This document shows positions 7,588 through 42,434 of a stretch of DNA of 64,000 nucleotides, one piece after another. Origin of the DNA: a virus; the IMG/VR virus record IMGVR_UViG_3300045988_128026, positions 23,157 to 87,156 of that record. The stretch is one strand, 5' to 3'. Positions within the stretch are counted from its first letter, which is position 1, and every line of letters starts with the position of its first letter. The translations under genes were made by a program, and so were the position numbers. A model generated the notes under the pieces. That model saw nothing but the letters and a program-made list of their open reading frames with translations, was not told the DNA's origin and made no database searches.

Positions 7588-7598
7588 TAACTTTCACC

Positions 7599-9347: not shown

Positions 9348-9414
9348 AACATTAGAGGTATCATTTGTGCCACCTTCATATAATTTGTATTTTATATGTA
9401 TAACCTGCCTGTTC

Positions 9415-10443: not shown

Positions 10444-10446
10444 AAC

Positions 10447-12000
10447 CTACGCTCCGTTTTTCTCTCGTTTTATGACATATCCTATTTCGTCCCAAGTATT
10501 TAAATCCAAATTGATTTCAAAAATTGGAATAACATTTTTGTTACCGCCTCGGTTTTTATCAACCTTAATACAGAAATATGTCTTGTCCTTTTTTAGATCG
10601 TGCGCCTGTGGTTCTCCCCAATCACTAATTGATATATACTGATATTTGTAATATTCGTCAGGATGTAATCTTTTACCAAGCATTAAGATATCAGCAACGT
10701 GCTTAATCTGTTTTGCATTGGCAATATTATTACTACTTAGTTGGAATATATCTGTATACATTGTGTCATCTGTTAACTGGAATACAGAAAAACAAAACAT
10801 ATGGATCTCTTTCATAAGCTCTTTAATTTTTGTGGCTGTCTGTTTCACCGTTTGCCAATCATCAATACGATAACCTTTTAACGTGTCATAACCACAATAT
10901 TTCACATCATATAACATACGATGTTTTCTAAATTCAAACTCTAATGCCGAATCTGAGTAATCAGAGCCAACATCTTTGAAATATAATTTTCCTTGACGTT
11001 TCTGATCTACCCATTTTGCAACTTGCATAACTTTTTGAAACTCATCTGACGTCGTAGCTACTCTATGTCTGTACTCCTCTTCTGTTTCAATAAAGTCGCC
11101 ATTTTCATTTGTTTTTCTTTCAATCACATTGCCATTGTTGTCTCTGTAAATACCAAGAACTATTTCTTCTTCTGGCTTTTCAATATCAACCCCATGAAGC
11201 TCTTTAAAACATTTGTTGTTGATCACTGTAACGACTAAGCAATTTCGCAAATCGTCTTCATCCATTTCGTTACTGAGTAATAAAAATTTCTCATCCATTG
11301 CCAATACGATATATGCGATCAACAACATCATATTTCTTGATTTTCCTTCATTACTTAAGAATCCATTAAAAATTACCTTTCCAAGTCGACACCCTCTGAA
11401 CATCTTATTGAGAATCCCCCAAGGTAACGGAATCCCTAAATCTGGTTTTGATAAAAATGATTCAACCTGTGATTCAACACCACTATTCAATAAGACAGAA
11501 TCTTCGCCTGCGCTAATAACAGTATTAATTTTATCTGCCTGAGATCGAATCACTCTATAAATATCTTTTGCTTCCCATTTTTCAAATAATCTATGGTTTA
11601 AAATTCTTTGAACAGGATATCCATTTCTGTCATACTCTCTAACAAGAGAGTATTTCTTAACGAGATTATAATATTTTTTAAAATCATCACAATCTGCAAC
11701 CTGCATCCATGATGAAATTGTTTTCCACCCTTTGTATCTTTTATATGTCCTAAGTCTTTCATCTGATTGACTCATGAACATATTTACCTTATCTTCCTCA
11801 ATCGTCTGAGTAAATGTTTTGTACATAATCTCAAACATATCATAGAAGAATTTACATGCCTCATCACTGAAATCATACTGGCTTCTCATATATCCACCAT
11901 AAGAAACATATAAATCTGGTTGTTTATACAAAGCACCGATAAACATCATTTCACTCTGAATGTTAGTTACACTTTTACGTTCCACTGTTTCTTCTGTCAA
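10447..12000 (-). CDS. putative DnaB-like replicative helicase (RecA-fold C-terminal domain)
   Basis: P-loop-like NGFLSNEGKSRNMMLLIAY followed by acidic LLLSNEMDEDD; position between primase and recombinase; 517 aa. Weak motif match. Confidence 0.45.
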   Translation of the reverse strand: MTEETVERKSVTNIQSEMMFIGALYKQPDLYVSYGGYMRSQYDFSDEACKFFYDMFEIMYKTFTQTIEEDKVNMFMSQSDERLRTYKRYKGWKTISSWMQVADCDDFKKYYNLVKKYSLVREYDRNGYPVQRILNHRLFEKWEAKDIYRVIRSQADKINTVISAGEDSVLLNSGVESQVESFLSKPDLGIPLPWGILNKMFRGCRLGKVIFNGFLSNEGKSRNMMLLIAYIVLAMDEKFLLLSNEMDEDDLRNCLVVTVINNKCFKELHGVDIEKPEEEIVLGIYRDNNGNVIERKTNENGDFIETEEEYRHRVATTSDEFQKVMQVAKWVDQKRQGKLYFKDVGSDYSDSALEFEFRKHRMLYDVKYCGYDTLKGYRIDDWQTVKQTATKIKELMKEIHMFCFSVFQLTDDTMYTDIFQLSSNNIANAKQIKHVADILMLGKRLHPDEYYKYQYISISDWGEPQAHDLKKDKTYFCIKVDKNRGGNKNVIPIFEINLDLNTWDEIGYVIKREKNGA

Positions 12001-12710
12001 TCAAGTCCCTCACCAAAAATATCACTTAAAATGTCATCCATGTTATCGTCTTGCGTGGCTGTTACTACAGTTTTCTGAGTTGTGATATTATTTGTTTCAA
12101 CAAAAGATTTTGCAAATTTTTCATTATTCTTTTTGTCTACTTCATTTAATTTCTGTTTCTCTTTCCATCGTAAATAACTATCATATTTTCCCACTAAAAC
12201 CGCTAAATCATAATTAACCTGGTGTGTTGGGTTATCTTTATCCATCGTTCCTTTTTGTATTAAAAATGTTCGATTTTTCTTAAGATATTTCATTTGACGC
12301 TTCCACATATCTAAAAGGTCACTTGGCGGAATTGGTTTCGCCAAACCACGATATGTACCTTTGTAAATACTTTTCAATTTTGTAAAAACATATGCTGGTA
12401 CAGAACCAATGTAATTATAATTATCAAGAATAAACCGATATACTTTGTCTTCTAATAATCTTGGTTCAAGTAACAATCGTGCTTTCTGATTATATTCGTC
12501 AATCTTAGATAATGCAGATAACCATTTATCATGTTTAGTATTTTTGGATAATAATTTTGCTTCACACATTTTTTGGAAACATTCTTTGTGATAATAACTA
12601 TTGTCATATTTAACAATCTCTTGTACTTTATCTAAATCAAGTCCAATTACTTCTTTACAATAAGCACATTTTACTGTTAAAACATCTGCCATACTACAGT
12701 TACTCCTCAC
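11997..12710 (-). CDS. hypothetical protein with N-terminal Cys4/His zinc-finger-like motif
   Basis: CAYCKEVIG...YYHKECF; 237 aa; no further recognisable motif. Confidence 0.4.
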   Translation of the reverse strand: MRSNCSMADVLTVKCAYCKEVIGLDLDKVQEIVKYDNSYYHKECFQKMCEAKLLSKNTKHDKWLSALSKIDEYNQKARLLLEPRLLEDKVYRFILDNYNYIGSVPAYVFTKLKSIYKGTYRGLAKPIPPSDLLDMWKRQMKYLKKNRTFLIQKGTMDKDNPTHQVNYDLAVLVGKYDSYLRWKEKQKLNEVDKKNNEKFAKSFVETNNITTQKTVVTATQDDNMDDILSDIFGEGLD

Positions 12711-12759
12711 TTAATATCTAAGGATCAGACAGCCCAAAAGGGCTGCCACATAAATCCTT

Positions 12760-13947
12760 TTATGATAAAACTTCCTCAATCTTTTTCAACTGTCCAAGAT
12801 CTTTAATTCGTGTAATTGTAGTAGGTAATCCTTCTTTCACAAGCTTGTCTTTCATCTCCTGTTTCTCTGGAGGTGTCATCTGTTTAATCATATTAATAAT
12901 TCGCTTTCTAACTGCCTCAACAGAATCTTCATTATTGGAAACTCCGTCATTAGTTACACCAGATTCTTCTTTTTCTGCTTCCTCTTCGGAAACTGGCTTA
13001 CCTGCTTCTCCAAGAATTTCTCTCTTATAGATTTTCTGTTCAACATCAACTGCTTTTGTGAGGGCATTACCAAGTGTAAACTCTTTGTTACCAACAGAAT
13101 TGTCAATAACTTTCTGCCATGCTAACATCTGCGGATCTTCAACAATTTCATTCTTTTTATATGTATGTGTTCTATCTTTCACAATCTGTGCACAAACCAT
13201 GTCAGTTTCATCATCAACGAATGTACGAATTACTGTTTTGGCGTTATAATCCATACCTTTAAATCCGTCAATAATTTTACGACCTGTTGTAACAGTTTCT
13301 CTTTTACCATCAATCATCTTAGATTCTGTTTCATCTTTTTCTCTTGCTGTTACAACACAATGTGCTCCAGAAGCTAATAAATCAAGAATTAAATCCTGAC
13401 CTTTGAAGTTTACAGTCTGGTAATCTTTTAATTCCATACCTGCACCTTCAATCTTGACAAGTCTGGCTTCACCTGTCATATTTGCAGCATCCGCTTTTAC
13501 ACGATTTCTTTTCTTAGAGAACTCAATCAATCCCTGTTTTGTAGTCAGATTTAAGATTGTTGATCCATCTACAACAATTGCATCAGCTCTAAATGGAAGA
13601 CCATCTGCATCTAAAACTACATCATCAGTTTCTTCTCCATCGTCATCAAGCTCGTAGAAGTCACCGTTTGTTTTAACTGTATCAATATAATGTCTTACTT
13701 CTCCTAAGCTCTGAGTGTAAACAATGTAAATGTTTTCGAGATTTACACCATTTTCCTCTAATTCTGGTAAATAATCATCAATACTTCCTGATTCAGAATC
13801 TAAATATAAGACTCTGAAAGGTTTCCCATCTGGGCGTTTAAAATACGCTAACTGCATTGCCAGTGTACTTTTACCAGTAAAAGGTTCTCCATAAATAATA
13901 GTCATCAATTTACTCTGTGTTTTTGCTGCTTTTCTTGCTTTTGCCAA
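12760..13947 (-). CDS. RecA-family recombinase (RecA/UvsX/Sak4-like ATPase)
   Basis: IIYGEPFTGKSTLAMQLAYF...VLYLDSESG closely parallels the RecA Walker A and downstream IDAEHAL segment; 395 aa; acidic C-terminal region. Confidence 0.65.
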   Translation of the reverse strand: MAKARKAAKTQSKLMTIIYGEPFTGKSTLAMQLAYFKRPDGKPFRVLYLDSESGSIDDYLPELEENGVNLENIYIVYTQSLGEVRHYIDTVKTNGDFYELDDDGEETDDVVLDADGLPFRADAIVVDGSTILNLTTKQGLIEFSKKRNRVKADAANMTGEARLVKIEGAGMELKDYQTVNFKGQDLILDLLASGAHCVVTAREKDETESKMIDGKRETVTTGRKIIDGFKGMDYNAKTVIRTFVDDETDMVCAQIVKDRTHTYKKNEIVEDPQMLAWQKVIDNSVGNKEFTLGNALTKAVDVEQKIYKREILGEAGKPVSEEEAEKEESGVTNDGVSNNEDSVEAVRKRIINMIKQMTPPEKQEMKDKLVKEGLPTTITRIKDLGQLKKIEEVLS

Positions 13948-14012
13948 ATGTAAAACTCCTTTATGTATATATTGTTTTTGTTATTTATTTGTGAAATGAT
14001 TTAGAATTGCTC

Positions 14013-15125
14013 TTACCAAACATCGCCTTCAGTATCATCTGAAGAATCATCAAAACCAGATCCCCATTCATCATCTGTAGAAGAACTACTTGTCTGTTTA
14101 TCATCAGACTCACCGAAATCACTTCTTGCTGCTTCTGCCTTTTTAATAGCTTCAATCGCTGCATCAATTGCTTCTCTGGTGTATGTTTCTGAATCAATAC
14201 TGTCTTTGCTTGCGCCAGTGATAATAAGTTCTTTTCTTGCAGAATTTACGACTCTCTTTGTAGGATCTGCTTCTCCCCATCCATCATCTTCTACTTCAAC
14301 TTCTTCTGTCTGAATTTCTGTCTTAATATGTCCCCAAACTTCAATAGATGAATATGGCTTCACATTTTTCTTAAAAGTTTTTGCTAATTTCTTATTTGTC
14401 ATATAGAATTCAGCATCATCAACAGATGAATAACCAATAATCTTTCCATAAACGATAAAACGTCCTGTTGGCACATCATTTTCTTTTTCCTGTTCGATAT
14501 TTGTGAATACCATTGTCTGTTTGAAATCAGATCTTACTTTACGTTCTTCATCATCAAGATCAATTTCTTTACTTGTTAAACTAATCTGTGTTGGAGACAT
14601 TCTTGACCACTGACGTTTAGTACCGTCTTCCCCAGTAAAACTTCCATATTCAATATCTCCTTTGATGAATACACTCTGGTTGTCTGCCATGTGTTCTGAA
14701 GCATATTTTGTTAAATCAAATGGATCTAATACCATTTTTTTGTTAACGACCTGTCCTTTATCATTGGTCTCTTTTTCAAGACCTGCTCTTGAACCAATAA
14801 TTGCCCAACCTTCGCCAAGTCCTAATTCTTCAGCCGATTTAAAACGATCCGCCCAAGGAATTTTTTTAGTTTTGTATGTACCGTCTTTCTCTCGTTTGAT
14901 AAAACATACTGTAGGTTTTTCAAATGCCTGAATTTTACATCCAACTTTTACGTCAGGTTCTACTTTAACTCCGAAAGATAATGTTCGTTTATCTTTGCCT
15001 TTCTGCGTTTTACCTTCCTTATAAAAGTCGTCTTTCGCACAATCAGTGATTAATCCTTCTAACTGAAATGTACCTTTAGTTTCTGGTAAGTTGAAAAGTC
15101 TTTTAGATTTTGTGTTTTCTGCCAA
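14013..15125 (-). CDS. putative ssDNA-binding protein (acidic C-terminal tail)
   Basis: Ends DDEWGSGFDDSSDDTEGDVW (acidic tail, terminal aromatic) as in SSBs; sits next to the recombinase gene. No direct OB-fold motif recognised. Confidence 0.4.
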   Translation of the reverse strand: MAENTKSKRLFNLPETKGTFQLEGLITDCAKDDFYKEGKTQKGKDKRTLSFGVKVEPDVKVGCKIQAFEKPTVCFIKREKDGTYKTKKIPWADRFKSAEELGLGEGWAIIGSRAGLEKETNDKGQVVNKKMVLDPFDLTKYASEHMADNQSVFIKGDIEYGSFTGEDGTKRQWSRMSPTQISLTSKEIDLDDEERKVRSDFKQTMVFTNIEQEKENDVPTGRFIVYGKIIGYSSVDDAEFYMTNKKLAKTFKKNVKPYSSIEVWGHIKTEIQTEEVEVEDDGWGEADPTKRVVNSARKELIITGASKDSIDSETYTREAIDAAIEAIKKAEAARSDFGESDDKQTSSSSTDDEWGSGFDDSSDDTEGDVW

Positions 15126-30506: not shown

Positions 30507-31241
30507 TTATTTGCGAGCATTTTTCATCTGATCTAATATGGCTTTAGCTTCTTGCTGTCGCTCTTCTTGCTCCATATGATAATCCAATGTTTCTGCACTA
30601 GATTCATACGCAATAGCAACGCCTTTGGCTTGTTCGCTAAGTTTCTTTGCTCCTTCTCGAACCTCTTCCAAACCTTCCTGAGCAGCATTTGAACTATTGT
30701 ATTGATCTAAATTTTTCTGCAATTCTGCAATCTGCTGATCTGCCTCCATCTGAAGAACCACAGTATCTTTTTCGCTTTTTAGCTTAATGAGCTGATCATA
30801 CGCTTGGTTTTTAATTTCTTCTTGTTTATCTTTTGTGGATTGCAACTCTGGGATTTTCTTTTCGTACACTGATTTCTGTGCCTTTAGCGTGGCTAATTTT
30901 TGAGCATAATACATTGCTTTTTTATCATCATGATTATCAATGTACTGGTTGATCATTGCCTCGGTTTTAGAAATTTCTTCTTTTGTTTCTTTGAGATCAT
31001 CTTCCATTGTTGCCAATCTACCAGCTACCGTTGTGTATGTACCCATTGTTTTCTTATAAAAGTCCTGTTTCTCTTTAATTGCAGTATTATATCTGGCTCT
31101 TGCTCCCTCTGGAGTCATTGCATTTTCTTTGATCTTTTCTGTAACTGTTCCAGATGCCACATTTTTAATCTGCTTTCCGTTTTTAGTAAATTGTAAATAT
31201 GCGATAATTGCTACAATTACACAAATAATAATAATTGCCAT
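30507..31241 (-). CDS. membrane-anchored PspA/IM30-like coiled-coil protein
   Basis: N-terminal TM MAIIIICVIVAIIAYL followed by ~220 aa heptad-rich coiled coil. C-terminal NSSNAAQEGLEEVREGAKKLSEQAKGVAIAYESS resembles the PspA/LiaH C-terminal region. Assignment by pattern only. Confidence 0.4.
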   Translation of the reverse strand: MAIIIICVIVAIIAYLQFTKNGKQIKNVASGTVTEKIKENAMTPEGARARYNTAIKEKQDFYKKTMGTYTTVAGRLATMEDDLKETKEEISKTEAMINQYIDNHDDKKAMYYAQKLATLKAQKSVYEKKIPELQSTKDKQEEIKNQAYDQLIKLKSEKDTVVLQMEADQQIAELQKNLDQYNSSNAAQEGLEEVREGAKKLSEQAKGVAIAYESSAETLDYHMEQEERQQEAKAILDQMKNARK

Positions 31242-31255
31242 AATAATTTCTCCTA

Positions 31256-32716
31256 TTAGAACTCACGGTAATCTGCTGGCTCTGGTGTTCCAAGATTTTC
31301 ATTATCTGTAAACTCTACTTCTTTATCTTCAGAAACAAAATCTTTCAACATCTTTGCAAGATCAACACCTGTAGATCCTTTAACACCATCTGATACCTGA
31401 TTCACAACATTCATAATATCTTTTGTTAATTTTGTTGTATTGCCTTCTCCATACATAGTGATACTTCCTACGTTTCCTAATGGCGCAGCTGCATTTTTAA
31501 CTGCTTCTGGGAACATCTGGCACATCATTTCGACGATAGAAGCTTTACCCATCTGCTTCATAGCTTCGGCTTTCTTTTCGATCGCTTCTGCTTCAGCAAT
31601 ACCTTTTGCTTTAATCGCCTCAGCTTCTGCTACACCTTTCGCACGGATACCTTCAGCTTCCTGTTCCATAGCATATTTTGTAGATTCAGCTTCTTTTTCT
31701 TTAGCATATTTATTAGCTTCTGACTCTTTCTGTCTCTTATATAAATCTGCATCTGCTTTCTGCTGAGAGGCATATCTTTCAGCCTCTGCCTGTTTCTTGA
31801 TCTGTGCATCTAATGTCTGCTCTGTTACCTCAACGTCTTTACGTTTCAGTTCAATTTCTTTTTCCTGACGCATAATATTAGCATCCGCAGTTACAATTTC
31901 AATTTCTTTACGTGATTTTTCTTCCTGAATCTTGTATGCTGCATCTGCCTCAGCCTTCTTTGCTTTTGAAATCTTCTCAAGTTCAGATTTTTTAATTTCC
32001 AGATTGTTATTCTTTTCTGCGATCGCTGTTTCTGACTCAACCCTTGCATCATTCGCTTCTTTTTCAGCCATTGCTTTTGCTTTTTCAATATCTCTTTCGC
32101 TTTCAGCTCTGGAAATTGCAGCCTTCTTCTGAATTTTAACAACATTATCTACACCAAGATTTTCAATAACATCATTATCATCCATAAAATTCTGCACATT
32201 AAAACTGATGATATCTAATCCCATTGCAGCAAGGTCTGGCTTCGCATTTTCTGTAACAAGCTGTGCAAATTTCTGACGATCAGAAACCATTTCTTCGAGG
32301 CTCATCTTTCCAACGATCTCTCGCATATTACCTTCAAGGACTTCTCTTGCGACCTGTCCAATATCGCCTACTGGCTTATTTAAGAAGTTTTCTGCTGCAA
32401 GTTTTAATCTTTCTGGATTACTGCTAACCTTTACATTGACCGCTGCATCTACATTGATATTGATATAATCTGCTGTAGGCACAGAACTTGATGTCTTAAC
32501 ATCAATTGGAATTAACTCAAGATTAAGATGATCTGCTTTTTCAAAGAATGGGATTTTTAACCCTGCCTTACCAATTAATGTCTTAGGTGTCTTTCTAAGT
32601 CCAGAAATAATATAAGCTTTATCTGGACTTGCTTTGACATAACCGCTACCGATAATAGCTCCTACGCCACCTACCGCAATAACCACTGGTACCACTGTTC
32701 CAATTACTTCAATCAT
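31256..32716 (-). CDS. flotillin-like SPFH/band-7 protein (FloT/YqiK-like)
   Basis: N-terminal hydrophobic hairpin VVPVVIAVGGVGAIIGSGYV; SPFH core ...LIPIDVKTSSSVPTADYININVDAAVNVKV...RQKFAQLV...; long EA-rich repeat region (AEAEAIKAKGIAEAEAIEKKAEA); 486 aa. Confidence 0.75.
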   Translation of the reverse strand: MIEVIGTVVPVVIAVGGVGAIIGSGYVKASPDKAYIISGLRKTPKTLIGKAGLKIPFFEKADHLNLELIPIDVKTSSSVPTADYININVDAAVNVKVSSNPERLKLAAENFLNKPVGDIGQVAREVLEGNMREIVGKMSLEEMVSDRQKFAQLVTENAKPDLAAMGLDIISFNVQNFMDDNDVIENLGVDNVVKIQKKAAISRAESERDIEKAKAMAEKEANDARVESETAIAEKNNNLEIKKSELEKISKAKKAEADAAYKIQEEKSRKEIEIVTADANIMRQEKEIELKRKDVEVTEQTLDAQIKKQAEAERYASQQKADADLYKRQKESEANKYAKEKEAESTKYAMEQEAEGIRAKGVAEAEAIKAKGIAEAEAIEKKAEAMKQMGKASIVEMMCQMFPEAVKNAAAPLGNVGSITMYGEGNTTKLTKDIMNVVNQVSDGVKGSTGVDLAKMLKDFVSEDKEVEFTDNENLGTPEPADYREF

Positions 32717-33116: not shown

Positions 33117-33887
33117 TTAATCATCCAACTCCATTCCTGCCTCGATCCACATGCCAGATATAAATTTAGGCATTGGAGCAAGTTTAAATACATTCTTCTC
33201 ATGCATCTCGTCAATGATCTGTCTCACTGCTTCATCTTTACATACTCCAGTTCTCAGATATTCGTCTAACATATCATATATAAATCCAAGATTATCTTCA
33301 TCTGTCTTACCGCATAATCCATCAGTAGGTGTTTTTTCGATTAACTCTGTTGGAAGTCCCAGAACTCTACCAATTGCTTTAACTTCTGTCACAGTCAGAT
33401 CACTTAATGGACTAAAATCTCCGGCTGAATCTCCATATCTTGTTGCATATCCGACCCAATCTTCAGATAAATTACATGTATTTGCTACTCTTCCATTCAT
33501 ACTCTGTGCAAAAGCATACAATGTAGCCATTCGGATACGAGCAGGTAAATTTGTGGCACTCTGTTTACTCCATTTACCGCCTAATTCATCTCTGATTTCA
33601 TGTTTAATATCTCTGCAAGCATTAAAAATATTAACTGTGTAATGTTCAATTCCTAGATGATCACATAGCATCTGAGAATACTCAATATCACTCTGCACAC
33701 CCTGTGGCATCATAATTCCAATAACTCGATCTTTACCTAGTGCTTCGACACATAAGGCAGCGACAACTGATGAATCTTTACCGCCTGAAATTCCTACAAC
33801 GGCATTACACCATCTTCCATTAACTTTAAACCAATCTCTAATCCACTGTACTAATCTGTCTTTGGTTTCTGCTGCATTAAAACTCAT
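33117..33887 (-). CDS. nadE: NH3-dependent NAD+ synthetase
   Basis: PP-loop GISGGKDSSVVAAL; size 256 aa; ATP-pyrophosphatase-fold conservation throughout. Confidence 0.85.
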   Translation of the reverse strand: MSFNAAETKDRLVQWIRDWFKVNGRWCNAVVGISGGKDSSVVAALCVEALGKDRVIGIMMPQGVQSDIEYSQMLCDHLGIEHYTVNIFNACRDIKHEIRDELGGKWSKQSATNLPARIRMATLYAFAQSMNGRVANTCNLSEDWVGYATRYGDSAGDFSPLSDLTVTEVKAIGRVLGLPTELIEKTPTDGLCGKTDEDNLGFIYDMLDEYLRTGVCKDEAVRQIIDEMHEKNVFKLAPMPKFISGMWIEAGMELDD

Positions 33888-34287
33888 GTTTTATATCTCC
33901 TCTCTTAATTCTTGAAATAAGTATTTTTAAGTGTTTATAGACTAAAGGCAAGCCACCTCTGTCATCAATATATACATTTGCATATGTCTTGCGACCGCCT
34001 ACGGGAACTGAACTGTCACAGTTGATACCTTTATATTTAATCTTATAATTCTGTAAATAATTTGCGATCATATCATATTTGTCTGATCCATTACCTGTCA
34101 GAATAATCACTTCAGAATAATCTTCCCATTCTCGAAGCAAATTCATCACGTCGTCATAAGTTCTACCAACTTTGTGAAAATCATATAATGTATCATCAAA
34201 ATCTACACAGAAAATTAATTTTCCATATTTTTTAAATTCATCTTCAAGTCGCTGATAGCAATGGTTTTCATCTAAGTAAAAATCCAT
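33877..34287 (-). CDS. small HAD-superfamily phosphatase
   Basis: Motif I VDFDDTL (DxDxT), motif II ILTGN, motif IV YIDDRGG; 136 aa. Confidence 0.5.
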   Translation of the reverse strand: MDFYLDENHCYQRLEDEFKKYGKLIFCVDFDDTLYDFHKVGRTYDDVMNLLREWEDYSEVIILTGNGSDKYDMIANYLQNYKIKYKGINCDSSVPVGGRKTYANVYIDDRGGLPLVYKHLKILISRIKRGDIKHEF

Positions 34288-35756
34288 TAAAATTCTCCTT
34301 CGTTTAAAACTCTTCTAATTTCCTGTAATGACTGTTCTTTTACCAATTTGCCATCTCTAAATACTGTCTCAAGCAGATTATTCATTGGAAGATTTTCTGA
34401 AGTATATCCATCTTTAAATGTCAATTTACCGTCTGATCCTGTATAAACATGACATAAACCTCTCTGAGATTTCTTAAATCCGCCATCTTTGGGATTCTTA
34501 AAAATTGGATATGGTCTGCCATTAATCTCACAATATGTTGCTTTGATGCAGCTACTAAATGTATCTCTTGTAAATGGTTTCAAAACTCCATCTTCTTCAA
34601 TGCACTGGAATGAGAATGATCCGACACCAAGTGCAACATTGCTTGCTGCGAATCCATTTTTCTCTAAGATGTCATAAATCTGCTCACATCTCTGCACTGT
34701 AATTGAATCTCCGTAAATTGCTTTTATATGAGGATCTAAAACTTTATATCCTTTACTGTTTGTCGTTCCCCCAAACTCTTCCCATAACTTGAATACCGTT
34801 CTGGTTACTACATCTACACAATCTCCTGAGTCTCCTCTGACAAGAAAACATCCATTGTGATTCATGATCTCATTCTTGAGTTTTGGGAGAATATTCTCTA
34901 CAACATTCCAATAATCATATGAATCTAACACTGCTGAGAAACTTGTGTTTGGATAAATCTCTGTCAGTAATCTCTTAATTAATGTTTCTTCATCTCCATC
35001 AATTGCATAATTACTACACATAACTGAATGTTCAGTCGATGGACTACCAAAAGCAACTGGCTCTTTCGTACAATCACAGTTATAATTTCTCTCTAAATAC
35101 GGAATTGTTGGAACTGTTGCTGTATTCAAGAATGATAAACACCATCCTGCCCCTGCTTTAACCGCAGACTGTAAACATTCTTCGCCACGAAAATCGAAAG
35201 CCCCTAATGCTTTAGATTTTGGAATATCGTCATCACAAGTCATTTCATAGAACTTGTTAACAATCTGTCTGTATGTATGTCCAACAGTTGCAGCGATCAT
35301 CGGATGCCACATTTCTGCGGAAATTAAGCTTTCTAATGCCTGTGGTAACCATGCAAAATCTTTATGTGTATTCTCAATACTAAACATCGGCACATGCATT
35401 GGTGCTAAAGTTCCTTCAGGAAGAGCCTTAATCTCAATTGGAAGATAGCCAAGATCATATAAATCTTCGATTTTCTGTAATCCATATGTACCTTCTCCAA
35501 GAGCTGCATCCATTACTGTCTTATAAGTACCAATTGCTTTGTTTCTATATTCAAAGAAAAAATACTCATTAAAATAATCGACCAAATACTCTTTAATGAA
35601 TCCTTGTAATCCAAACATGGCTACTTCATTCCATCGTTTTACTCTGCTCATACGTGGAGTAAAATAAGAAACAGATTTTGTAATACCTTTTGGTAACATT
35701 TCAGCATGAACTGCTTTGTAAAAATCAATTAATAACATTGGGTTTGTCTGTTTCAT
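34287..35756 (-). CDS. nicotinamide phosphoribosyltransferase family protein (NadV/Nampt-like; could equally be a Namat-type nicotinamide ADP-ribose transferase)
   Basis: LLIDFYKAVHAEMLP..SYFTPR parallels the Nampt ATDSYKVTHYKQYP..SYFECR; 489 aa; adjacent to a Prs-like gene. Confidence 0.75.
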   Translation of the reverse strand: MKQTNPMLLIDFYKAVHAEMLPKGITKSVSYFTPRMSRVKRWNEVAMFGLQGFIKEYLVDYFNEYFFFEYRNKAIGTYKTVMDAALGEGTYGLQKIEDLYDLGYLPIEIKALPEGTLAPMHVPMFSIENTHKDFAWLPQALESLISAEMWHPMIAATVGHTYRQIVNKFYEMTCDDDIPKSKALGAFDFRGEECLQSAVKAGAGWCLSFLNTATVPTIPYLERNYNCDCTKEPVAFGSPSTEHSVMCSNYAIDGDEETLIKRLLTEIYPNTSFSAVLDSYDYWNVVENILPKLKNEIMNHNGCFLVRGDSGDCVDVVTRTVFKLWEEFGGTTNSKGYKVLDPHIKAIYGDSITVQRCEQIYDILEKNGFAASNVALGVGSFSFQCIEEDGVLKPFTRDTFSSCIKATYCEINGRPYPIFKNPKDGGFKKSQRGLCHVYTGSDGKLTFKDGYTSENLPMNNLLETVFRDGKLVKEQSLQEIRRVLNEGEF

Positions 35757-36589
35757 AAATCTAACACCTCAACTTTCTCATGCTCTTTGGTAAAAATACT
35801 ACGTGTCGTATACACTTTTTTAAACAAACTATCTTCCTTTAATAATTCGCCATCAAGAATTGTATTTTCACAGTGACTAACATATAAATACATATCTTTA
35901 CAACCGTATTTGTTTAATTCTTTTGATCCATAATAGAATGTGCCACCCTTACTACAAATATCATCAATCATAAGGATTGCCGTATTTTCGTCTAATTTAT
36001 CTGTATCTCCATGAATCTCAATACCAAGAATTTCTCCTGTCTTCCAATCACGATTTTTAATTCCATAAACAATCGGATAATCATCTGATACAAATTCAGA
36101 ATATCTTTTTAGTGATCCGCTATCTGGAAAATAAATTACAAGATTTCTTGATGGTTCTGCTTTAAGGACTTTGCTACAAGTTTGTGTAATATATGATGCT
36201 CCACGGATTACTTCTACATGATCAATCAATGCAGTAGATACATCAGAATGTGGATCAGTTACAATAACTCTTACAAATCCAAGACTATTAATAATTTCTG
36301 CAAAATATTTTAATGTAAAGCATTCGCTTGGCTCTTTTACTCTGTCAAATCTTGCATTTGGTATATACGGCATCACTAATGCTTGTTGTAACCACGGAAA
36401 ATGTTCTTTAATATTTTTAGAAATACACAACAAGGAAAACAACTCTTTATCTGACTCATATAACCATGTGATATACGCTGTCTTGTTTTCTATGATTTCT
36501 TGAGATATCACGCCTAACGAAAAATCAATTTTTTGCGTTCCATCTGGAAAAGATTCTGGAACAACTGGGACTCCATTAATACTAATCAT
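35753..36589 (-). CDS. ribose-phosphate pyrophosphokinase-like protein (Prs; alternatively Adps-type ADP-ribose pyrophosphokinase)
   Basis: PRPP-binding loop AILMIDDICSKGGTF; 278 aa (shorter than canonical Prs); 4-nt overlap with the Nampt-like gene. Confidence 0.7.
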   Translation of the reverse strand: MISINGVPVVPESFPDGTQKIDFSLGVISQEIIENKTAYITWLYESDKELFSLLCISKNIKEHFPWLQQALVMPYIPNARFDRVKEPSECFTLKYFAEIINSLGFVRVIVTDPHSDVSTALIDHVEVIRGASYITQTCSKVLKAEPSRNLVIYFPDSGSLKRYSEFVSDDYPIVYGIKNRDWKTGEILGIEIHGDTDKLDENTAILMIDDICSKGGTFYYGSKELNKYGCKDMYLYVSHCENTILDGELLKEDSLFKKVYTTRSIFTKEHEKVEVLDL

Positions 36590-36603
36590 TCTTTATCACC
36601 CCT

Positions 36604-37194
36604 TTATTCATTAATTATTTCAATTTGACACATTTTCATTGCTTCAAGTGCATTCTTGTGACTCTCTGGTGTTACACCTGCGCAACACGATGCATCTACG
36701 ATAATCTTTGCTTTTGGAAGTGCCGCTTTTAATAACATTGCATTGGAGATTACACAAATATCTGTACATAAACCAATTAATGTAATTTCCACATTTTCTG
36801 GATGAAGTCGATTACCAATCCCAAATTCATCTTCACAGTCAAGTGCAAGGTCTAATGATCCAAATGTGCTTTTACGGTACATACCATCTGGTAATATAGA
36901 TTTGTCTTTGTTATCATCAATGGAAATATTGTTAGATAAAACATCTCCTACCTCTTGATTTAACCGCCATCCATCTTCTCCGCAGATGCAATGCTTTACT
37001 GGAAGATTCTTTCCTTCCTGTGTGGAAAGATAATCTTCCTCATGTGTGTCCATTGTTGCTACGATTATTCCATCAAAATTAATAATTTTCTCTACAACTT
37101 TTGGAACGATCTCCTGTGCTTCTTTAGTCCCAAGGCTTCCGTCGATGAAATCATTCTGCATATCGACGACAACCAATAACTTGTCAATATTCAT
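36604..37194 (-). CDS. pncA: nicotinamidase / isochorismatase-family hydrolase (PncA-like)
   Basis: LLVVVDMQNDFIDGSLG; Cys-containing GLCTDICVISNA catalytic segment; 196 aa. Confidence 0.75.
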   Translation of the reverse strand: MNIDKLLVVVDMQNDFIDGSLGTKEAQEIVPKVVEKIINFDGIIVATMDTHEEDYLSTQEGKNLPVKHCICGEDGWRLNQEVGDVLSNNISIDDNKDKSILPDGMYRKSTFGSLDLALDCEDEFGIGNRLHPENVEITLIGLCTDICVISNAMLLKAALPKAKIIVDASCCAGVTPESHKNALEAMKMCQIEIINE

Positions 37195-38163: not shown

Positions 38164-40233
38164 TTAAAATTTAATTTTAAGAACTCTTTCAGTAGCGCCC
38201 TTGACTTTGACGATCACATCATCTCGTTTTGTAGAACTAAAACCAATTCCTGATAACTGGTTTTGATCATCTGCGACATGCATCTTACTTCCTAAAGCCT
38301 CGAATACTCTCTTGTGCTGTACTAATTCCTGTTTCAAGAACTCATTGAAGAATCCATTTGGAGTATCTTCATTTACACATCCGTTTAACATGAACAGATA
38401 ATGTTTGTGTCCAATACCTGTCTGTTCATCCCAATAGTTAGGCGAATAACACATTACTGTTACTGGCACAAACTGATTTGTATTGACACCCCAGATTTCT
38501 CTTGAAGATGTTGTAGATGGAAGTTTCTCTTTGATTGTGAATACTCCATCTTTTAATGTAACTGTAGCCACTGGCACGTTTTGTCCCTGTCGCAAAGGCT
38601 GATCGTATTCAAATTCATAAATCTGACCATCAAATTCAATCTCTGCTGTAAATCCTGATGTACCGTTGCTATGGCAATAATTGTGTACGAAAAATTCATA
38701 ATCTCCATCAACCATCTTGGATTTATCCGCCCATGTAATATTTTCTACAGCAGGTTTCCCCTTTACTGGATTAATCACATCAACATCAAGTCTGCCTCGT
38801 GTTCCAGAATCAAACATATGACTAAAGAAAATATGCTGACAAGGTGTTTTACAATGTGCGTCAAAGTCATCTCTGTTCCAATCTTTTCCTGCGTTCCACT
38901 GGATTGAAAATCTTAAGACACCATCAACTGCTCCGCCTGCGTTCTTAACTCGTTCTTTCATCTCGCTATCTGTCATATTTCCTGAATATGCCCAACTGAA
39001 AGGATTGCTCCACTTCATCATGTTCTTGGCATCTTTGTTTACAGGTGCGATCAGTGAAACCATGTTCTTCTTATGTCGATTTTCAAACAAGACTTCTAAT
39101 TCTTTTGCGGTTGGAAGAACATCTGATACAAATTTCTCTGCACTGATCTCTTCTACTTTAGAGAATTTCTTAGGATTTACAGCGACTTCCTTACTCATCT
39201 CATCAAAAATATCTAAGCCGCCCTGGATACGTGGTGCTGCATCACGATTACAAAACAGAATATTGTTTACCGTAATATCGTCAAGTCTTGCAAATCTACG
39301 CTGCAATGAATCCATATATCCTAAATCGGTTACAGTTTTCTTTGCATCCTCAAGCATTTTCTTCGTAAAAATTGCCTTTGGTCGTTTGTAATTCGCAGGA
39401 GCTACAACATTTTCATAAGCTTTTACTGCATTATCTAAATCCATACCTTCGCTGATATTCACAAGTAATGTACCGATACTATGGTTTCTAATACGACCAA
39501 TTACATCTCCGATCGTCATGGCTTTTGTCCATGTGTATGTATCTTTTTCTTCATCTGACAAACCGTTGTATTCTCGCTGATATTTTCTAAAATCTTTTAA
39601 TACTCTTTCCCATTCCTGTCCTCTATAAAGAGTATTTGAAGCAATCAGTTCTAATACTGTATCAACAGCTTCTTCTGTAATTTCATCAAGTGATCTTTTA
39701 AACACATTCTTTCGATCTCTCACTTTTGCTTTAATTGTAGGAATATCAGATTTCCTTTCCAATAACCTCTCTGGAATCGGTGTATACATATGAGTCCATT
39801 TGATAATCTGCTTATCTTCTGTATACTCATTTGTGGTTTTTGTACCAACTGTATTTGTAAAATGTCTCCAAATATCTTTGATCGGCTTTGATTCGACATA
39901 TGTTCTTAAGGCATCAACTACTGGCTGAAATACTACATCATCTGTGTCGATCTCCCAGATTGTATGAATCTTGCCGTCAACAATTGCCACAGCTCCACCG
40001 ATTGTTTTAATAAAGTTTCGGCAATGACCACAGTCATATTCTCGTCGTTTGCGATACATTTTGTTTGTTCCTTCAGGAAAACTACTCAGATATACTTCCC
40101 ACAGCACATCTTTATCAATATCAGTTTCATACAATGTAGAATTGTTTTTCTCTACATAGTCGAGCATTTTATTTAAACGCTCTGACAATTTGTTTAAAAA
40201 ATTGCTCCAGTTTTCATTCATTGGCGTACACAT
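38164..40233 (-). CDS. large hypothetical protein (689 aa) flanking the NAD island
   Basis: Intact long ORF; CGHC (thioredoxin/PDI-like CxxC) at residues ~68-71 (YDCGHCRNF); no other recognisable motif. Confidence 0.45.
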   Translation of the reverse strand: MCTPMNENWSNFLNKLSERLNKMLDYVEKNNSTLYETDIDKDVLWEVYLSSFPEGTNKMYRKRREYDCGHCRNFIKTIGGAVAIVDGKIHTIWEIDTDDVVFQPVVDALRTYVESKPIKDIWRHFTNTVGTKTTNEYTEDKQIIKWTHMYTPIPERLLERKSDIPTIKAKVRDRKNVFKRSLDEITEEAVDTVLELIASNTLYRGQEWERVLKDFRKYQREYNGLSDEEKDTYTWTKAMTIGDVIGRIRNHSIGTLLVNISEGMDLDNAVKAYENVVAPANYKRPKAIFTKKMLEDAKKTVTDLGYMDSLQRRFARLDDITVNNILFCNRDAAPRIQGGLDIFDEMSKEVAVNPKKFSKVEEISAEKFVSDVLPTAKELEVLFENRHKKNMVSLIAPVNKDAKNMMKWSNPFSWAYSGNMTDSEMKERVKNAGGAVDGVLRFSIQWNAGKDWNRDDFDAHCKTPCQHIFFSHMFDSGTRGRLDVDVINPVKGKPAVENITWADKSKMVDGDYEFFVHNYCHSNGTSGFTAEIEFDGQIYEFEYDQPLRQGQNVPVATVTLKDGVFTIKEKLPSTTSSREIWGVNTNQFVPVTVMCYSPNYWDEQTGIGHKHYLFMLNGCVNEDTPNGFFNEFLKQELVQHKRVFEALGSKMHVADDQNQLSGIGFSSTKRDDVIVKVKGATERVLKIKF

Positions 40234-41603: not shown

Positions 41604-42434
41604 CTAAGCTGATGCACTCTGTGAGGCAAAGTATTGTGCTAATTTCTTTGCCAAGTATAATTGCCCTTTGCCAGTCACATATGTTTTGGTGATCAACTTG
41701 TTTCCATTCTTAGTTTCAACTTCACTTTCTGTTAATTTGAAAATGCCCTGCTTAACATATCTTTCATATGGGGTATTATCTGACATGAGATACCCTTCTT
41801 TTCTTAACCACGCAAATAATTTGTTTCTGCCCATATGAATATCTTGATTTTCTTTCTCAAGAAGCTTTGCCATTGTTTTCATATCAACCATTGTTGGTGT
41901 GGCACTGACCGTATTGGCAAAATCAACAAGTGGCTTCTGTTTACTGATAACTTCTTCTTTCTGGGCTAATAGTTCATCCTTTTGTTCCAAAGTGTTTTGC
42001 ATAATATTCAATGCTTTCGCCATGATAGTTAAATCATCATCGTCTTTTTCAATTGGAATATATCCGCCTGTCTTACGAATCTGCGGAAGAACTTCTGATG
42101 TTACCCAATGCTTGAATTCTTTTGCCTTATCAAGCTTACTTCCAAAGATTAATGCATAAAGTCCTGACTCATTAATAAACACTGGGTATTGAACTCTCCC
42201 TAATTTGTCTGTTATAGATGGGGTAACGTTTCGTTCCCCCATAATTTTATCTTCATCGTCAACATGATCTCGAATTGCTTTCTTCGAATTTGTATAACCA
42301 AGACACTCAGCTACATCTTTCCCTACGAACCACGGGTTATTATTTAAGATTACCGTTCTGATATTCCCAAATTCATCATTATTAAACACCAATGTGTTTA
42401 ATCCTTCATTTACCATATTCTTTTCTTCTGTCAT
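41604..42434 (-). CDS. BRO-N / KilA-C type phage anti-repressor-like protein
   Basis: BRO-N signature ..FGNIRTVILNNNPWFVGKDVAECLGY.NSKKA and SKLDKAKEFKHWVTSEVLPQIRKTGGY; good RBS AGGAGG. Confidence 0.65.
   Translation of the reverse strand: MTEEKNMVNEGLNTLVFNNDEFGNIRTVILNNNPWFVGKDVAECLGYTNSKKAIRDHVDDEDKIMGERNVTPSITDKLGRVQYPVFINESGLYALIFGSKLDKAKEFKHWVTSEVLPQIRKTGGYIPIEKDDDDLTIMAKALNIMQNTLEQKDELLAQKEEVISKQKPLVDFANTVSATPTMVDMKTMAKLLEKENQDIHMGRNKLFAWLRKEGYLMSDNTPYERYVKQGIFKLTESEVETKNGNKLITKTYVTGKGQLYLAKKLAQYFASQSASA

What the first reader, a model, noticed from the sequence alone, without database searches (positions are those of the whole stretch)
33117..37194. Phage-encoded NAD+ metabolism island (PncA, Prs-like, Nampt-like, HAD phosphatase, NadE) in the same genome as an NAD-dependent DNA ligase
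Five consecutive, translationally coupled minus-strand genes all act on the NAD+ pool. They are a nicotinamidase (VVVDMQNDF), a PRPP-synthetase-fold protein (MIDDICSKGGTF), a 489-aa Nampt-family phosphoribosyltransferase, a DxDxT HAD phosphatase and a PP-loop NadE (GISGGKDSS). The phage ligase at 1-1291 is itself NAD+-dependent (KxDG, TRGNGEIGEDVT motifs), so phage replication needs NAD+ directly. From established knowledge, bacterial TIR/SIR2-type defence systems (Thoeris, DSR, some CBASS and AVAST effectors) abort infection by depleting NAD+. Phage-borne NAD+ salvage genes are recognised counter-measures. This combination covers both the amidated route (Nampt) and the deamidated route (PncA plus NadE, with host PncB and NadD), together with a Prs-like enzyme and a phosphatase. 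That is broader than the two-gene cassettes I know of, and the role of the HAD enzyme is open.
Basis: partly seen in the sequence, partly recalled or inferred. Interest (0 to 1): 0.75.

Follow-up and report, generated by a model that had tools for sequence, protein, structure and literature searches.

The report
Phage NAD+ rebuilding pathway via nicotinate
This gut-phage gene island is a version of the known phage "NARP1" system that rebuilds NAD+ after bacterial defences destroy it. Sequence evidence suggests it has been rewired to work through nicotinic acid, with an added phosphatase of a kind not previously linked to the system.

Summary
The five minus-strand genes are real and tightly packed at 33117-37194. 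The "Prs-like" and "Nampt-like" genes are not Prs and Nampt. They are Adps and Namat, the published phage NAD+ reconstitution pathway NARP1.

Two features appear to be undescribed. First, this Namat belongs to a deep subfamily that has lost the Asp which hydrogen-bonds nicotinamide (SpβL1 D215, human NAMPT D219). It has Ala or Ser there instead, and A242 becomes Ser. Among 208 non-redundant loci, 113 of 116 Ala/Ser Namats have both a nicotinamidase and NadE nearby. None of 92 Asp/Glu Namats has either. I infer a self-contained deamidated route: Nam→NA (PncA); ADPR→ADPR-PP (Adps); NA+ADPR-PP→NaAD (Namat variant); NaAD→NAD+ (NadE).

Second, the 136-aa HAD protein belongs to a family found inside NARP1 operons of unrelated phages. 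It occupies the slot otherwise held by the known Macro-domain phosphatase Adpp, and the two never co-occur (72 versus 57 loci, 0 with both). It is probably a non-homologous substitute for Adpp.

All biochemistry here is inferred. Relatives are abundant in gut Clostridia phages and MAGs. Verdict: a new variant of a known kind.

The parts
36604..37194 (-). PncA-type nicotinamidase (196 aa). Predicted reaction: nicotinamide to nicotinate.
   Evidence: PF00857 5.9e-17; phrog_19305 6.5e-31. Best PDB match is the P. horikoshii pyrazinamidase/nicotinamidase 1ILW. The alignment conserves the catalytic triad D11/K101/C142 and the metal ligands D49/H51/H68. Found at the 5' end of the island in 113 of 116 loci with Ala/Ser-type Namat.
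35753..36589 (-). Adps (ADP-ribose pyrophosphokinase, PRPS fold; 278 aa). Predicted reaction: ADPR + ATP to ADPR-PP + AMP.
   Evidence: TIGR01251 scores 87 bits, below its 113-bit cutoff. phrog_619 5e-66. The best canonical PRPS in the PDB scores only 51 bits. The PP loop DDICSKGGTFYY falls within the range of Adps proteins found beside classical Namats (residues per PMC13586617). A 4-nt ATGA overlap joins it to Namat.
34287..35756 (-). Namat-family transferase of the Ala215/Ser242 subfamily (489 aa). Predicted reaction: nicotinate + ADPR-PP to NaAD + PPi.
   Evidence: 389 bits to SpβL1 Namat 9W5X/9W5W versus 175 bits to human NAMPT. Motif FLNTATVP replaces FTGTDTIP (SpβL1) and FKGTDTVA (human). 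Ala therefore sits where Asp215/Asp219 hydrogen-bonds nicotinamide. A242 becomes Ser and H187 becomes Gly. Clamp residues R40 and F392 are kept, and there is a 9-aa insertion in the clamp helix.
33877..34287 (-). Small capless HAD-superfamily phosphatase (136 aa), a NARP1-associated accessory. Predicted to dephosphorylate a phospho-ADPR species, such as ADPR-1''-P, to ADPR.
33117..33887 (-). Single-domain NH3-dependent NAD+ synthetase NadE (256 aa). Predicted reaction: NaAD + ATP + NH3 to NAD+.
   Evidence: PF02540 1.7e-56; TIGR00552 2e-55, above its cutoff. PP-loop motif GISGGKDSS. Best PDB match is the archaeal-type enzyme 2E18 at 130 bits. The characterised archaeal single-domain NadE acts on NaAD and not on NaMN (PMC3376133). 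It closes the island in 114 of 116 Ala/Ser-type loci.

Best explanation
The island is a counter-defence operon built on the phage NAD+ reconstitution pathway NARP1, in a variant that runs through deamidated intermediates.

When a host NADase (TIR, SIR2 and similar) cleaves NAD+ into ADP-ribose and nicotinamide, the proposed steps are:
1. PncA deamidates nicotinamide to nicotinate.
2. Adps pyrophosphorylates ADPR to ADPR-PP, using ATP.
3. The Namat variant has Ala in place of the nicotinamide-binding Asp and Ser in place of Ala242. It joins nicotinate to ADPR-PP to give nicotinate adenine dinucleotide (NaAD).
4. NadE amidates NaAD to NAD+, using ATP and ammonia.

Gene order follows pathway order, and no host enzyme is required.

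The HAD phosphatase is an optional fifth component. It converts a phosphorylated ADPR that Adps cannot use into ADPR. The most likely substrate is ADPR-1''-phosphate, made by RES-type NAD+ phosphorylases (aRES) or by breakdown of ADPR-PP. This is the job the Macro-domain Adpp does in the published NARP1-AP.

Shown here: the family memberships, the residue substitutions, the covariation, and the sharing of one slot. Inferred: every substrate and product, and the anti-defence phenotype.
For: NARP1 core:
- Namat scores 389 bits to the solved SpβL1 Namat versus 175 bits to human NAMPT.
- Adps falls below the canonical Prs cutoff but hits the phage family at 5e-66. Its PP loop resembles that of Adps proteins beside classical Namats.
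- The two genes overlap by 4 nt.

Deamidated route:
- SpβL1 Asp215 is the residue that hydrogen-bonds nicotinamide (PMC12774641).
[quoted passage not shown] D219S switches substrate affinity and D219A loses activity (PMC4919578).
- The window protein has Ala at this position.
- Among 208 non-redundant Namats with at least 3 kb of flank on both sides, 113 of 116 Ala/Ser types have both PncA and NadE nearby. None of the 92 Asp/Glu types has either (Fisher p = 2e-56, not corrected for phylogeny).
- The triple substitution at positions 215, 242 and 187 is complete: 129 island-type versus 123 classical sequences.
- The association holds across 21 clusters at 80% identity and down to phAss-1 at about 36% identity.
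- It holds again in 80 independent bacterial-genome/MAG loci, all of which read TATVP.
- No PncB, NadD or NMNAT homolog was found in the window.
- PncA keeps all of its catalytic and metal-binding residues.
- NadE is of the archaeal-type NaAD-specific class.

HAD phosphatase:
- The catalytic motifs are intact and the fold is HAD-like.
- The gene sits between Adps and Namat in classical operons that lack PncA and NadE.
- It occupies the Namat-NadE slot that holds Macro in about 48 of 102 islands.
- HAD occurs in 72 loci, Macro in 57, and both together in 0 of 208.
- Among relatives whose Namat is at least 94% identical, the slot is empty in 20, Macro in 6 and HAD in 3.
- The published NARP1-AP operon has the layout Adps-Macro phosphatase-Namat.
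Against: - No biochemistry was done. Nicotinate + ADPR-PP to NaAD has not been reported for any enzyme.
- The covariation traces to essentially one deep split in the Namat tree. Statistically it is one or a few evolutionary events maintained over time, not 113 independent ones.
- Ser242 could in principle replace Asp215 as a hydrogen-bond partner for the amide, which would leave nicotinamide as the substrate.
- It is not obvious why a phage should spend an extra ATP and add two enzymes when classical Namat uses nicotinamide directly.
- Three of the 116 Ala/Ser loci lack PncA or NadE nearby. One is explained by a TnpB/IS605 insertion. Another carries a NadD-like gene instead.
- The HAD family also occurs in a huge-phage island (PncB-NadE-TonB receptor-HAD-PnuC-NadR-PncA) with no Adps or Namat within 8 kb. 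It is fused to NadE in two contigs. A substrate other than ADPR-1''-P therefore remains possible, such as NADP+, 2'-phospho-ADPR or a mononucleotide.
- Foldseek matches for the HAD model were weak.
Confidence: 0.58

Rival explanations
1. This is classical NARP1 (nicotinamide + ADPR-PP to NAD+) accompanied by two independent salvage boosters. The Ala/Ser-type Namat still uses nicotinamide, with Ser242 or another residue compensating for the lost Asp. PncA and NadE speed up the host Preiss-Handler pathway through host PncB and NadD, as a back-up for when ADPR is unavailable.
For: All other ligand-contacting residues of Namat are conserved: D13, Y15, F189, R192, R306, D308, G360, D361, G390, R399 and D400. 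Other phages do stack several NAD+ pathways. A few MAG loci append PnuC-NadR to the island, and the huge phage carries PncB, NadE, PnuC and NadR together.
Against: It does not explain why loss of the specificity Asp coincides almost perfectly with the presence of PncA and NadE (0 of 92 versus 113 of 116). A phage PncA would compete with Namat for nicotinamide. PncB, the committed step of Preiss-Handler salvage, is absent from the window and from these islands. Human D219A is reported as loss of activity on nicotinamide.
Confidence: 0.2
2. The Prs-like enzyme makes PRPP and the Nampt-like enzyme makes NMN (amidated route). In parallel, PncA and NadE run a deamidated route through host PncB and NadD. 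The island is a broad two-route salvage cassette.
For: Pfam and NCBIfam names point this way. SpβL1 Namat retains about half of human Nampt's NMN-forming activity in vitro (PMC12774641).
Against: The original NARP1 study showed these Pfam-based predictions to be wrong for this gene pair. Rescue was independent of the host NMN-to-NAD enzymes pncC and nadR. The window proteins belong to the Namat and Adps families. There is no NMNAT in the window. The nicotinamide-binding Asp is absent.
Confidence: 0.1
3. A Francisella-like route. The Namat variant uses nicotinate + PRPP to make NaMN. NadE acts as an NMN synthetase (NaMN to NMN). A host NMN adenylyltransferase then completes NAD+.
For: The second-best PDB match of NadE is the F. 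tularensis enzyme 3FIU (107 bits), whose lineage adapted to NaMN. NadE is a short form.
Against: The best match is the archaeal-type enzyme (130 bits). The characterised representative of that type acts on NaAD with no appreciable NMN synthetase activity. Adps is always adjacent and has a typical Adps PP loop. The adenine-clamp residues R40 and F392 are retained. The route would require a host NMNAT.
Confidence: 0.05
4. The island is a general auxiliary-metabolism module, not a counter-defence system. It raises NAD+ supply for the phage's own NAD-dependent ligase and for replication, whether or not host NADases are active.
For: The genome encodes an NAD-dependent DNA ligase. No defence context can be assessed from the sequence.
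Against: The substrate of Adps, ADPR, is the product of NAD+ cleavage, so the pathway recycles rather than synthesises de novo. NARP1 homologs were shown experimentally to counter Thoeris, DSR1/2, SIR2-HerA and SEFIR. The rapidly swapping accessory slot is typical of arms-race loci. This reading is not mutually exclusive with the best explanation.
Confidence: 0.07

Closest known systems
NARP1 (Adps + Namat; Osterman et al. 2024, phages Bas63, SpβL1, Fado)
   Same: An adjacent, overlapping pair of a PRPS-fold Adps and a Nampt-fold Namat. Namat is about 50% identical to the solved SpβL1 enzyme. The catalytic core and adenine-clamp residues R40 and F392 are conserved. The expected role is to rebuild NAD+ from the products of NADase cleavage.
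   Different: The nicotinamide-binding Asp215 is Ala (Ser in a sister group), A242 is Ser and H187 is lost. The pair is always bracketed by a nicotinamidase and NadE, which were found near none of 92 classical NARP1 loci. The predicted intermediate is NaAD rather than direct formation of NAD+.
NARP1-AP (Adps-Adpp-Namat of Vibrio phage Gary; Osterman et al. 2026 preprint)
   Same: A phosphatase gene embedded in or abutting the NARP1 operon. In sister islands the very same slot holds a Macro-domain protein. The presumed role is to convert a modified ADPR into ADPR for Adps.
   Different: The phosphatase here is a 136-aa capless HAD enzyme with no homology to the Macro/Poa1p-like Adpp. Its substrate is untested.
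Preiss-Handler salvage (PncA, PncB, NadD, NadE)
   Same: It uses the first enzyme (nicotinamidase) and the last enzyme (NH3-dependent NAD synthetase), and passes through nicotinate and NaAD.
   Different: PncB and NadD are absent. Their two steps (NA to NaMN to NaAD) are predicted to be replaced by Adps plus the Namat variant acting on ADPR.
NARP2 (Nampt + NMNAT/Nudix, Vibrio phage KVP40) and NARP3 (PnuC + NadR-like, Bas30)
   Same: Phage-encoded NAD+ restoration systems that counter NAD+-depleting defences. A few relatives of this island carry PnuC-NadR immediately downstream.
   Different: Those pathways go through NMN or nicotinamide riboside and do not use ADPR. The window has no NMNAT, PnuC or NadR.

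Membership tests
NARP1 | A PRPS-fold protein of the phage Adps type rather than canonical Prs | tested here: met
   TIGR01251 at 87 bits is below its 113-bit cutoff. phrog_619 5e-66. The best PDB PRPS scores only 51 bits. The PP loop DDICSKGGTFYY matches Adps proteins beside classical Namats. No formal Prs/Adps tree was built.
NARP1 | A Namat homolog immediately adjacent to Adps (97% of the Adps clade in the defining study) | tested here: met
   The genes overlap by 4 nt. Adps was present in 208 of 208 Namat loci examined.
NARP1 | Namat closer to characterised Namat than to Nampt | tested here: met
   389 bits to 9W5X/9W5W (SpβL1 Namat) versus 175 bits to human NAMPT. It groups with phage Namats in the NJ tree rooted on human NAMPT.
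NARP1 | Adenine selectivity clamp (R40 in the loop; F392 and Y396 in the helix) | tested here: inconclusive
   R40 and F392 are conserved. The helix carries a 9-aa insertion (GSFSFQC-IEEDGVLKP-FTRD), so the Y396 equivalent cannot be assigned from sequence.
NARP1 | Nicotinamide as the base substrate, recognised by Asp215 (human Asp219) | tested here: not met
   Ala occupies this position (FLNTATVP versus FTGTDTIP) and A242 is Ser. The actual substrate was not assayed.
NARP1 | Enzymatic conversion of ADPR + ATP + base into a dinucleotide, and rescue from NAD+-depleting defence | not testable with these tools
   Requires purified proteins with LC-MS, and plaque assays.
NARP1-AP | A phosphatase gene inside or abutting the NARP1 operon | tested here: met
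   The HAD gene overlaps the Namat stop and the NadE start. The family sits between Adps and Namat in many classical operons.
NARP1-AP | The phosphatase is a Macro-domain (Poa1p-like) protein, Adpp | tested here: not met
   No Macro hit was found. The protein has HAD motifs and a HAD fold. Macro does occupy the same slot in sister islands.
NARP1-AP | ADPR-1''-phosphate to ADPR activity; overcomes aRES | not testable with these tools
   Biochemical and phenotypic assays are needed.
HAD-superfamily phosphatase | Motifs I-IV (DxDxT, Ser/Thr, Lys, DD) and a Rossmannoid HAD fold | tested here: met
Nicotinamidase (PncA) | Asp-Lys-Cys catalytic triad and an Asp/His/His metal site | tested here: met
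   D11, K101 and C142, plus D49, H51 and H68, align to P. horikoshii PncA 1ILW. The NCBIfam equivalog score is far below its cutoff, so this is a divergent member.
NH3-dependent NAD+ synthetase (NadE) | PP-loop SGGxDS, a single synthetase domain, no glutaminase domain | tested here: met
   GISGGKDSS motif. TIGR00552 at 188 bits exceeds its 63.65-bit cutoff. The protein is 256 aa. NaAD versus NaMN preference was not tested.
Complete Preiss-Handler pathway | PncB and NadD present alongside PncA and NadE | tested here: not met
   No homolog of phage PncB, NadD-like, NadR or PnuC was found in the 64-kb window by phmmer at E up to 0.01. This is a limited-sensitivity search.

The most novel reading that the evidence does not exclude
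The Ala/Ser-type Namat catalyses a reaction not known for any enzyme: nicotinate + ADPR-pyrophosphate to NaAD. PncA, Adps, this Namat and NadE would then form a fourth, self-contained phage NAD+ reconstitution pathway (a "deamidated NARP1"), widespread in phages of gut Clostridia. A HAD-family phosphatase would be a second, independently recruited solution to the problem that the Macro-domain Adpp solves.
Probability: 0.5. Interest if true: 0.82.

Novelty: new variant of a known kind. Interest (0 to 1): 0.72.

Why it matters
NAD+ depletion is among the most common bacterial anti-phage strategies, and NARP pathways are the main metabolic counter-measure known.

If this reading is correct, a large and previously unnoticed branch of NARP1 runs on nicotinate and NaAD. 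It is present in hundreds of gut-phage contigs and in Lachnospiraceae/Clostridia MAGs. That would add a new enzymatic reaction to NAD biochemistry. It would also provide a natural example of the Asp-to-Ser/Ala specificity switch that had previously been engineered in human NAMPT.

The finding raises a concrete question: why does the deamidated route pay in gut anaerobes?

The HAD/Macro/empty slot, which turns over among phages more than 94% identical, marks an active arms-race position. It predicts that RES-type or other non-canonical NAD+-cleaving defences are common in these hosts.

Both claims can be tested directly with four or five purified proteins and with existing defence-system plating assays.

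Tried and rejected
1. I first took the "HDF" motif for the nicotinamide-specificity site and found Asp-to-Ala only in the window's own clade. This was a mistake. HDF is H187-D188-F189. The specificity Asp is D215 in "GTDT". The HDF-region differences (H187 lost in all island types; D188A and S190D in the window clade) are kept only as side observations.

2. Megablast of the island against 50,697 phage records found nothing. Relatives were reachable only at the protein level.

3. I tested whether NadE is generally linked to NARP1 in phages, and rejected it. Cyanophage and pelagiphage "NadE-like" genes (about 34% identity) lie in glycosylation clusters, and Agrobacterium phage Atu_ph07 has a two-domain NadE among structural genes.

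5. The promoter and terminator scan gave no signal above shuffled expectation (23 versus 27.4 promoter-like sites; 0 terminators). Operon boundaries therefore cannot be set from consensus motifs.

6. There are no tRNAs in the window, and no sign of the TAG recoding seen in the distant relative phAss-1.

7. Literature searches for a HAD accessory, PncA/NadE with NARP1, or NaAD with NARP1 returned nothing relevant. The library is incomplete, so this is absence in what could be searched, not proof of absence.

8. The Adps structure paper's protein was not in the PDB copy, so a direct comparison with a solved Adps was not possible.

Full report
**1. Observation**

The five ORFs exist exactly as described, all on the minus strand:
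- 36604-37194, 196 aa
- 35753-36589, 278 aa
- 34287-35756, 489 aa
- 33877-34287, 136 aa
- 33117-33887, 256 aa

Three of the four junctions overlap: ATGA, TAATG, and an 11-nt overlap. The PncA/Adps junction is a 14-nt spacer containing a G-rich ribosome-binding motif.

Profile searches confirm most of the family calls. These are an isochorismatase/nicotinamidase domain (PF00857, 5.9e-17), a PRPS-like protein, a NAPRTase/NAMPT_N protein, and an NAD synthase (PF02540, 1.7e-56; TIGR00552 above its cutoff). The 136-aa protein has no Pfam match but hits phrog_1238 (3e-19).

The partial gene at 2-1291(-) is an NAD-dependent DNA ligase (PF01653, 3e-51, plus OB fold and zinc finger).

The whole window is coded on one strand at about 33% GC. 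It has no tRNA genes. Promoter or terminator signals around the island do not exceed chance.

**2. The central pair is NARP1, not Prs plus Nampt**

The Nampt-like protein scores 389 bits against PDB 9W5X/9W5W and 175 bits against human NAMPT. The depositing paper identifies 9W5X and 9W5W as Namat of phage SpβL1, the nicotinamide ADP-ribose transferase of NARP1 (PMC12774641).

The Prs-like protein falls below the curated Prs cutoff (87 versus 113 bits). It matches the phage family phrog_619 at 5e-66 and reaches only 51 bits against any solved PRPS.

Its PP loop, DDICSKGGTFYY, lies within the range seen in Adps proteins encoded beside classical Namats. The functional residues were taken from PMC13586617.

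The study that defined NARP1 started from the same two Pfam annotations. It showed experimentally that they mislead. Adps makes ADPR-PP from ADPR and ATP, Namat joins ADPR-PP to nicotinamide, and the operon overcomes Thoeris, DSR1/2, SIR2-HerA and SEFIR (bioRxiv 10.1101/2024.02.11.579819).

The core of the finding is therefore already known biology.

**3. The island is a conserved module**

Protein-level searches recovered the same gene order, PncA-Adps-Namat-HAD-NadE, in phage phAss-1 (OQ749652). Its proteins are only about 35-45% identical to those of the window.

A fecal contig, MT835544, has Adps-Namat-Macro-NadE-PncA.

IMG/VR holds 346 PncA-like and 159 NadE-like relatives. The dominant architecture is PncA>Adps>Namat>[slot]>NadE.

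A scan of 185,579 species genomes found 140 relatives at 71-79% identity. Almost all are in Lachnospiraceae or other Clostridia MAGs. Two are cultured isolates, and some lie on Mb-scale Mogibacterium contigs. In this set 57 of 80 loci read PncA>Adps>Namat>NadE.

The hosts are therefore most likely gut Clostridia, in agreement with the prediction made for phAss-1 (PMC10607447).

**4. A Namat subfamily that has lost the nicotinamide-binding Asp**

[quoted passage not shown] A review table lists D219S as switching substrate affinity and D219A as losing activity, both citing Khan et al. 2006 (PMC4919578).

The window protein reads FLNTATVP where SpβL1 reads FTGTDTIP and human reads FKGTDTVA.

I assembled 252 non-redundant Namats from loci seeded in five different ways: by PncA, NadE, HAD, two classical Namats, and an SpβL1-led alignment.
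- Every classical sequence has Asp or Glu at 215, Ala at 242 and His at 187 (123 sequences).
- Every island-type sequence has Ala or Ser at 215, Ser at 242 and a small residue at 187 (129 sequences).

Among the 208 with at least 3 kb of flank on both sides:
- 113 of 116 Ala/Ser types have both PncA and NadE nearby.
- 0 of 92 Asp/Glu types have either.
- Fisher p = 2e-56.

That p-value overstates the evidence. In an NJ tree the Asp/Glu sequences form one clade. The Ala/Ser sequences form its deep sister group, with phAss-1 at the base. The pattern therefore reflects one or a few ancient events, faithfully maintained across 21 clusters at 80% identity.

The three exceptions are informative rather than damaging.
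- L005 has a TnpB/IS605 element just downstream of Namat.
- L075 carries a NadD-like nucleotidyltransferase, YqeY, an NADAR/GP30.3-like protein and Macro in place of NadE.
- In L210 the Adps match is a short fragment (51 bits) and no PncA was found upstream; I did not examine this locus further.

An earlier analysis used the wrong motif, HDF. It is superseded.

**5. Proposed mechanism**

Four observations point to a linear deamidated pathway:
- Namat has lost the negative charge that would repel a carboxylate, and has gained a hydroxyl beside the catalytic His.
- It invariably co-occurs with an enzyme that makes nicotinate and an enzyme that amidates NaAD.
- Gene order matches the order of the reactions.
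- PncB, NadD and NMNAT are absent from the window and from these islands.

The proposed steps are:
1. Nicotinamide to nicotinate (PncA).
2. ADPR to ADPR-PP (Adps).
3. Nicotinate + ADPR-PP to NaAD (Namat variant).
4. NaAD to NAD+ (NadE).

PncA retains the full catalytic triad and metal site.

NadE is a single-domain ammonia-type enzyme. It is closest to the archaeal form, whose characterised member uses NaAD and not NaMN.

This is inference. No enzyme is known to make NaAD from ADPR-PP, and the selective advantage is unclear. Possible reasons, all speculative:
- Nicotinamide may be deamidated quickly in these hosts, so that nicotinate is the available base.
- The extra ATP-driven step may pull the pathway forward.

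The main rival is classical nicotinamide-using NARP1 with independent PncA and NadE boosters. It leaves the covariation unexplained and sets PncA in competition with Namat.

**6. The HAD protein**

All four HAD motifs are invariant in an alignment spanning 28-100% identity.

Foldseek alone was weak.

Genomic context gives the strongest evidence.
- In Bacillus phage Megatron the order is Adps-Namat-HAD. In crAss-like cr126_1 it is Namat-HAD-Adps.
- In an IMG/VR scan seeded with a diverse HAD alignment, 76 of 77 loci had Adps or Namat within 6 kb.
- The divergent members (35-47% identity) sit directly between Adps and Namat in operons that lack PncA and NadE.

That layout is the one published for NARP1-AP, Adps-Adpp-Namat. 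There the Macro-domain Adpp dephosphorylates ADPR-1''-P produced by the aRES defence, so that NARP1 can use it (bioRxiv 10.64898/2026.01.28.702374).

In the deamidated islands, the slot between Namat and NadE is distributed as follows among 102 non-redundant loci:
- Macro: about 48
- HAD: about 23
- empty (gap of -67 to +23 bp): 29

Across 208 loci, HAD occurs 72 times, Macro 57 times, and the two together never.

Among phages whose Namat is at least 94% identical to the window's, the slot is empty in 20, Macro in 6 and HAD in 3.

In classical loci not seeded on HAD, 22% have Macro and 6% have HAD. The authors reported 15% for Macro.

I conclude that this HAD family is a second, non-homologous NARP1-associated phosphatase.

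Its substrate is open. ADPR-1''-P is the most economical guess. Two observations urge caution:
- The family also occurs in a huge-phage island, PncB-NadE-TonB receptor-HAD-PnuC-NadR-isochorismatase, that has no Adps or Namat nearby.
- It is fused in frame to NadE in two contigs from different metagenomes.

NADP+/2'-phospho-ADPR, or a mononucleotide, remain possible substrates.

**7. Comparison with the literature, and novelty**

The searchable papers describe NARP1, NARP1-AP (Macro), RyDEP feeding NARP1, NARP2 and NARP3.

None of the papers I could search mentions a HAD accessory. None links a nicotinamidase, NadE, nicotinate or NaAD to NARP1. The phAss-1 paper only annotates the genes. The library is incomplete, so priority cannot be guaranteed.

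I classify the finding as a new variant of a known kind. The core is known. The nicotinate/NaAD rewiring and the HAD phosphatase are new, well supported by comparative evidence, and biochemically untested.

**8. Confidence**

| Claim | Confidence |
|---|---|
| The island is a NARP1-derived NAD+ reconstitution module | about 0.9 |
| It runs through nicotinate and NaAD | about 0.55 |
| The HAD is a NARP1-associated phosphatase, as a class-level statement | about 0.8 |
| Its substrate is ADPR-1''-P or a related phospho-ADPR | about 0.45 |

Noticed in passing
window 2-1291 (-): A partial NAD-dependent DNA ligase, cut by the window edge: adenylation domain PF01653 at 3e-51, OB fold, N-terminal Ia domain and zinc finger. 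The phage is therefore a direct consumer of NAD+.
   Followed up: yes
window 31256-32716 (-) and 30507-31241 (-): An SPFH/Band 7 protein with a flotillin-like region (486 aa) lies two genes downstream of NadE, followed by a 244-aa coiled-coil protein. CrAss-like phage cr126_1 also has an SPFH/Band 7 gene two genes from its NARP1 operon (L004 6396-7187). This may be coincidence or a recurrent neighbour.
   Followed up: partly
L213 5974-7131 and L219 (same coordinates): An in-frame fusion of the HAD phosphatase and NadE into one protein of about 377 aa, found in two contigs from different metagenomes.
   Followed up: partly
L167 (LR756501.1, 735-kb uncultured phage) 5992-14465: A different NAD island: PncB (NAPRTase) - 170 aa - 91 aa - NadE - TonB-dependent receptor - HAD homolog - PnuC - NadR-like (NMNAT + AAA_28 kinase) - 116 aa - isochorismatase. 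It has no Adps or Namat within 8 kb. A TonB-dependent receptor gene in a phage NAD island is odd.
   Followed up: partly
L075 8594-13264: A variant island: PncA - Adps - YqeY-like - cytidylyltransferase (NadD-like) - Ala-type Namat - GP30.3/NADAR-like - Macro, with no NadE in the 3.3 kb downstream.
   Followed up: partly
L005 12680-14305: The window's closest relative by PncA (99% identical) has a TnpB/IS605 OrfB-like gene (Cas12f-like TNB domain) shortly after Namat. HAD, NadE and the usual downstream genes are missing there.
   Followed up: partly
window 34287-35756 (-), Namat residues about 385-395 and 186-192: The window clade has a 9-aa insertion (IEEDGVLKP) inside the adenine selectivity-clamp helix, relative to both SpβL1 Namat and human NAMPT. 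It also reads GAFDFRG where others read HDFSMRG (H187G, D188A, S190D). S190 contacts the NMN phosphate in SpβL1. The consequences are unknown.
   Followed up: no
L378-L457 (genome-contig loci): In a few Clostridia MAG loci the island is directly followed by PnuC>NadR, a NARP3-like pair. Two NAD+ restoration systems are thus stacked side by side.
   Followed up: no
window 33117-34287 compared with L013/L019/L028 and L014-L016/L169-L171: Mosaicism. The window's NadE is 99.6% identical to relatives whose slot is empty. Its HAD is 96-99% identical to relatives whose NadE is only about 88% identical. This implies recent recombination at the slot.
   Followed up: partly
L165 (Synechococcus phage Bellamy) 5980-6720; L166 (Pelagibacter phage HTVC008M) 5986-6744: Genes annotated as NadE/NAD synthetase in marine cyanophages and pelagiphages sit between carbamoyltransferase, UDP-glucose dehydrogenase and glycosyltransferase genes. 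They are probably sugar-modifying amidotransferases and may be misannotated as NAD synthetase.
   Followed up: no
window 38164-40233 (-), 41604-42434 (-): A 689-aa protein matches phrog_1735 (unknown function) at 4.7e-263 and is conserved upstream of the island in close relatives. A Bro-N/KilAC (ANT) antirepressor-type protein lies further upstream.
   Followed up: no
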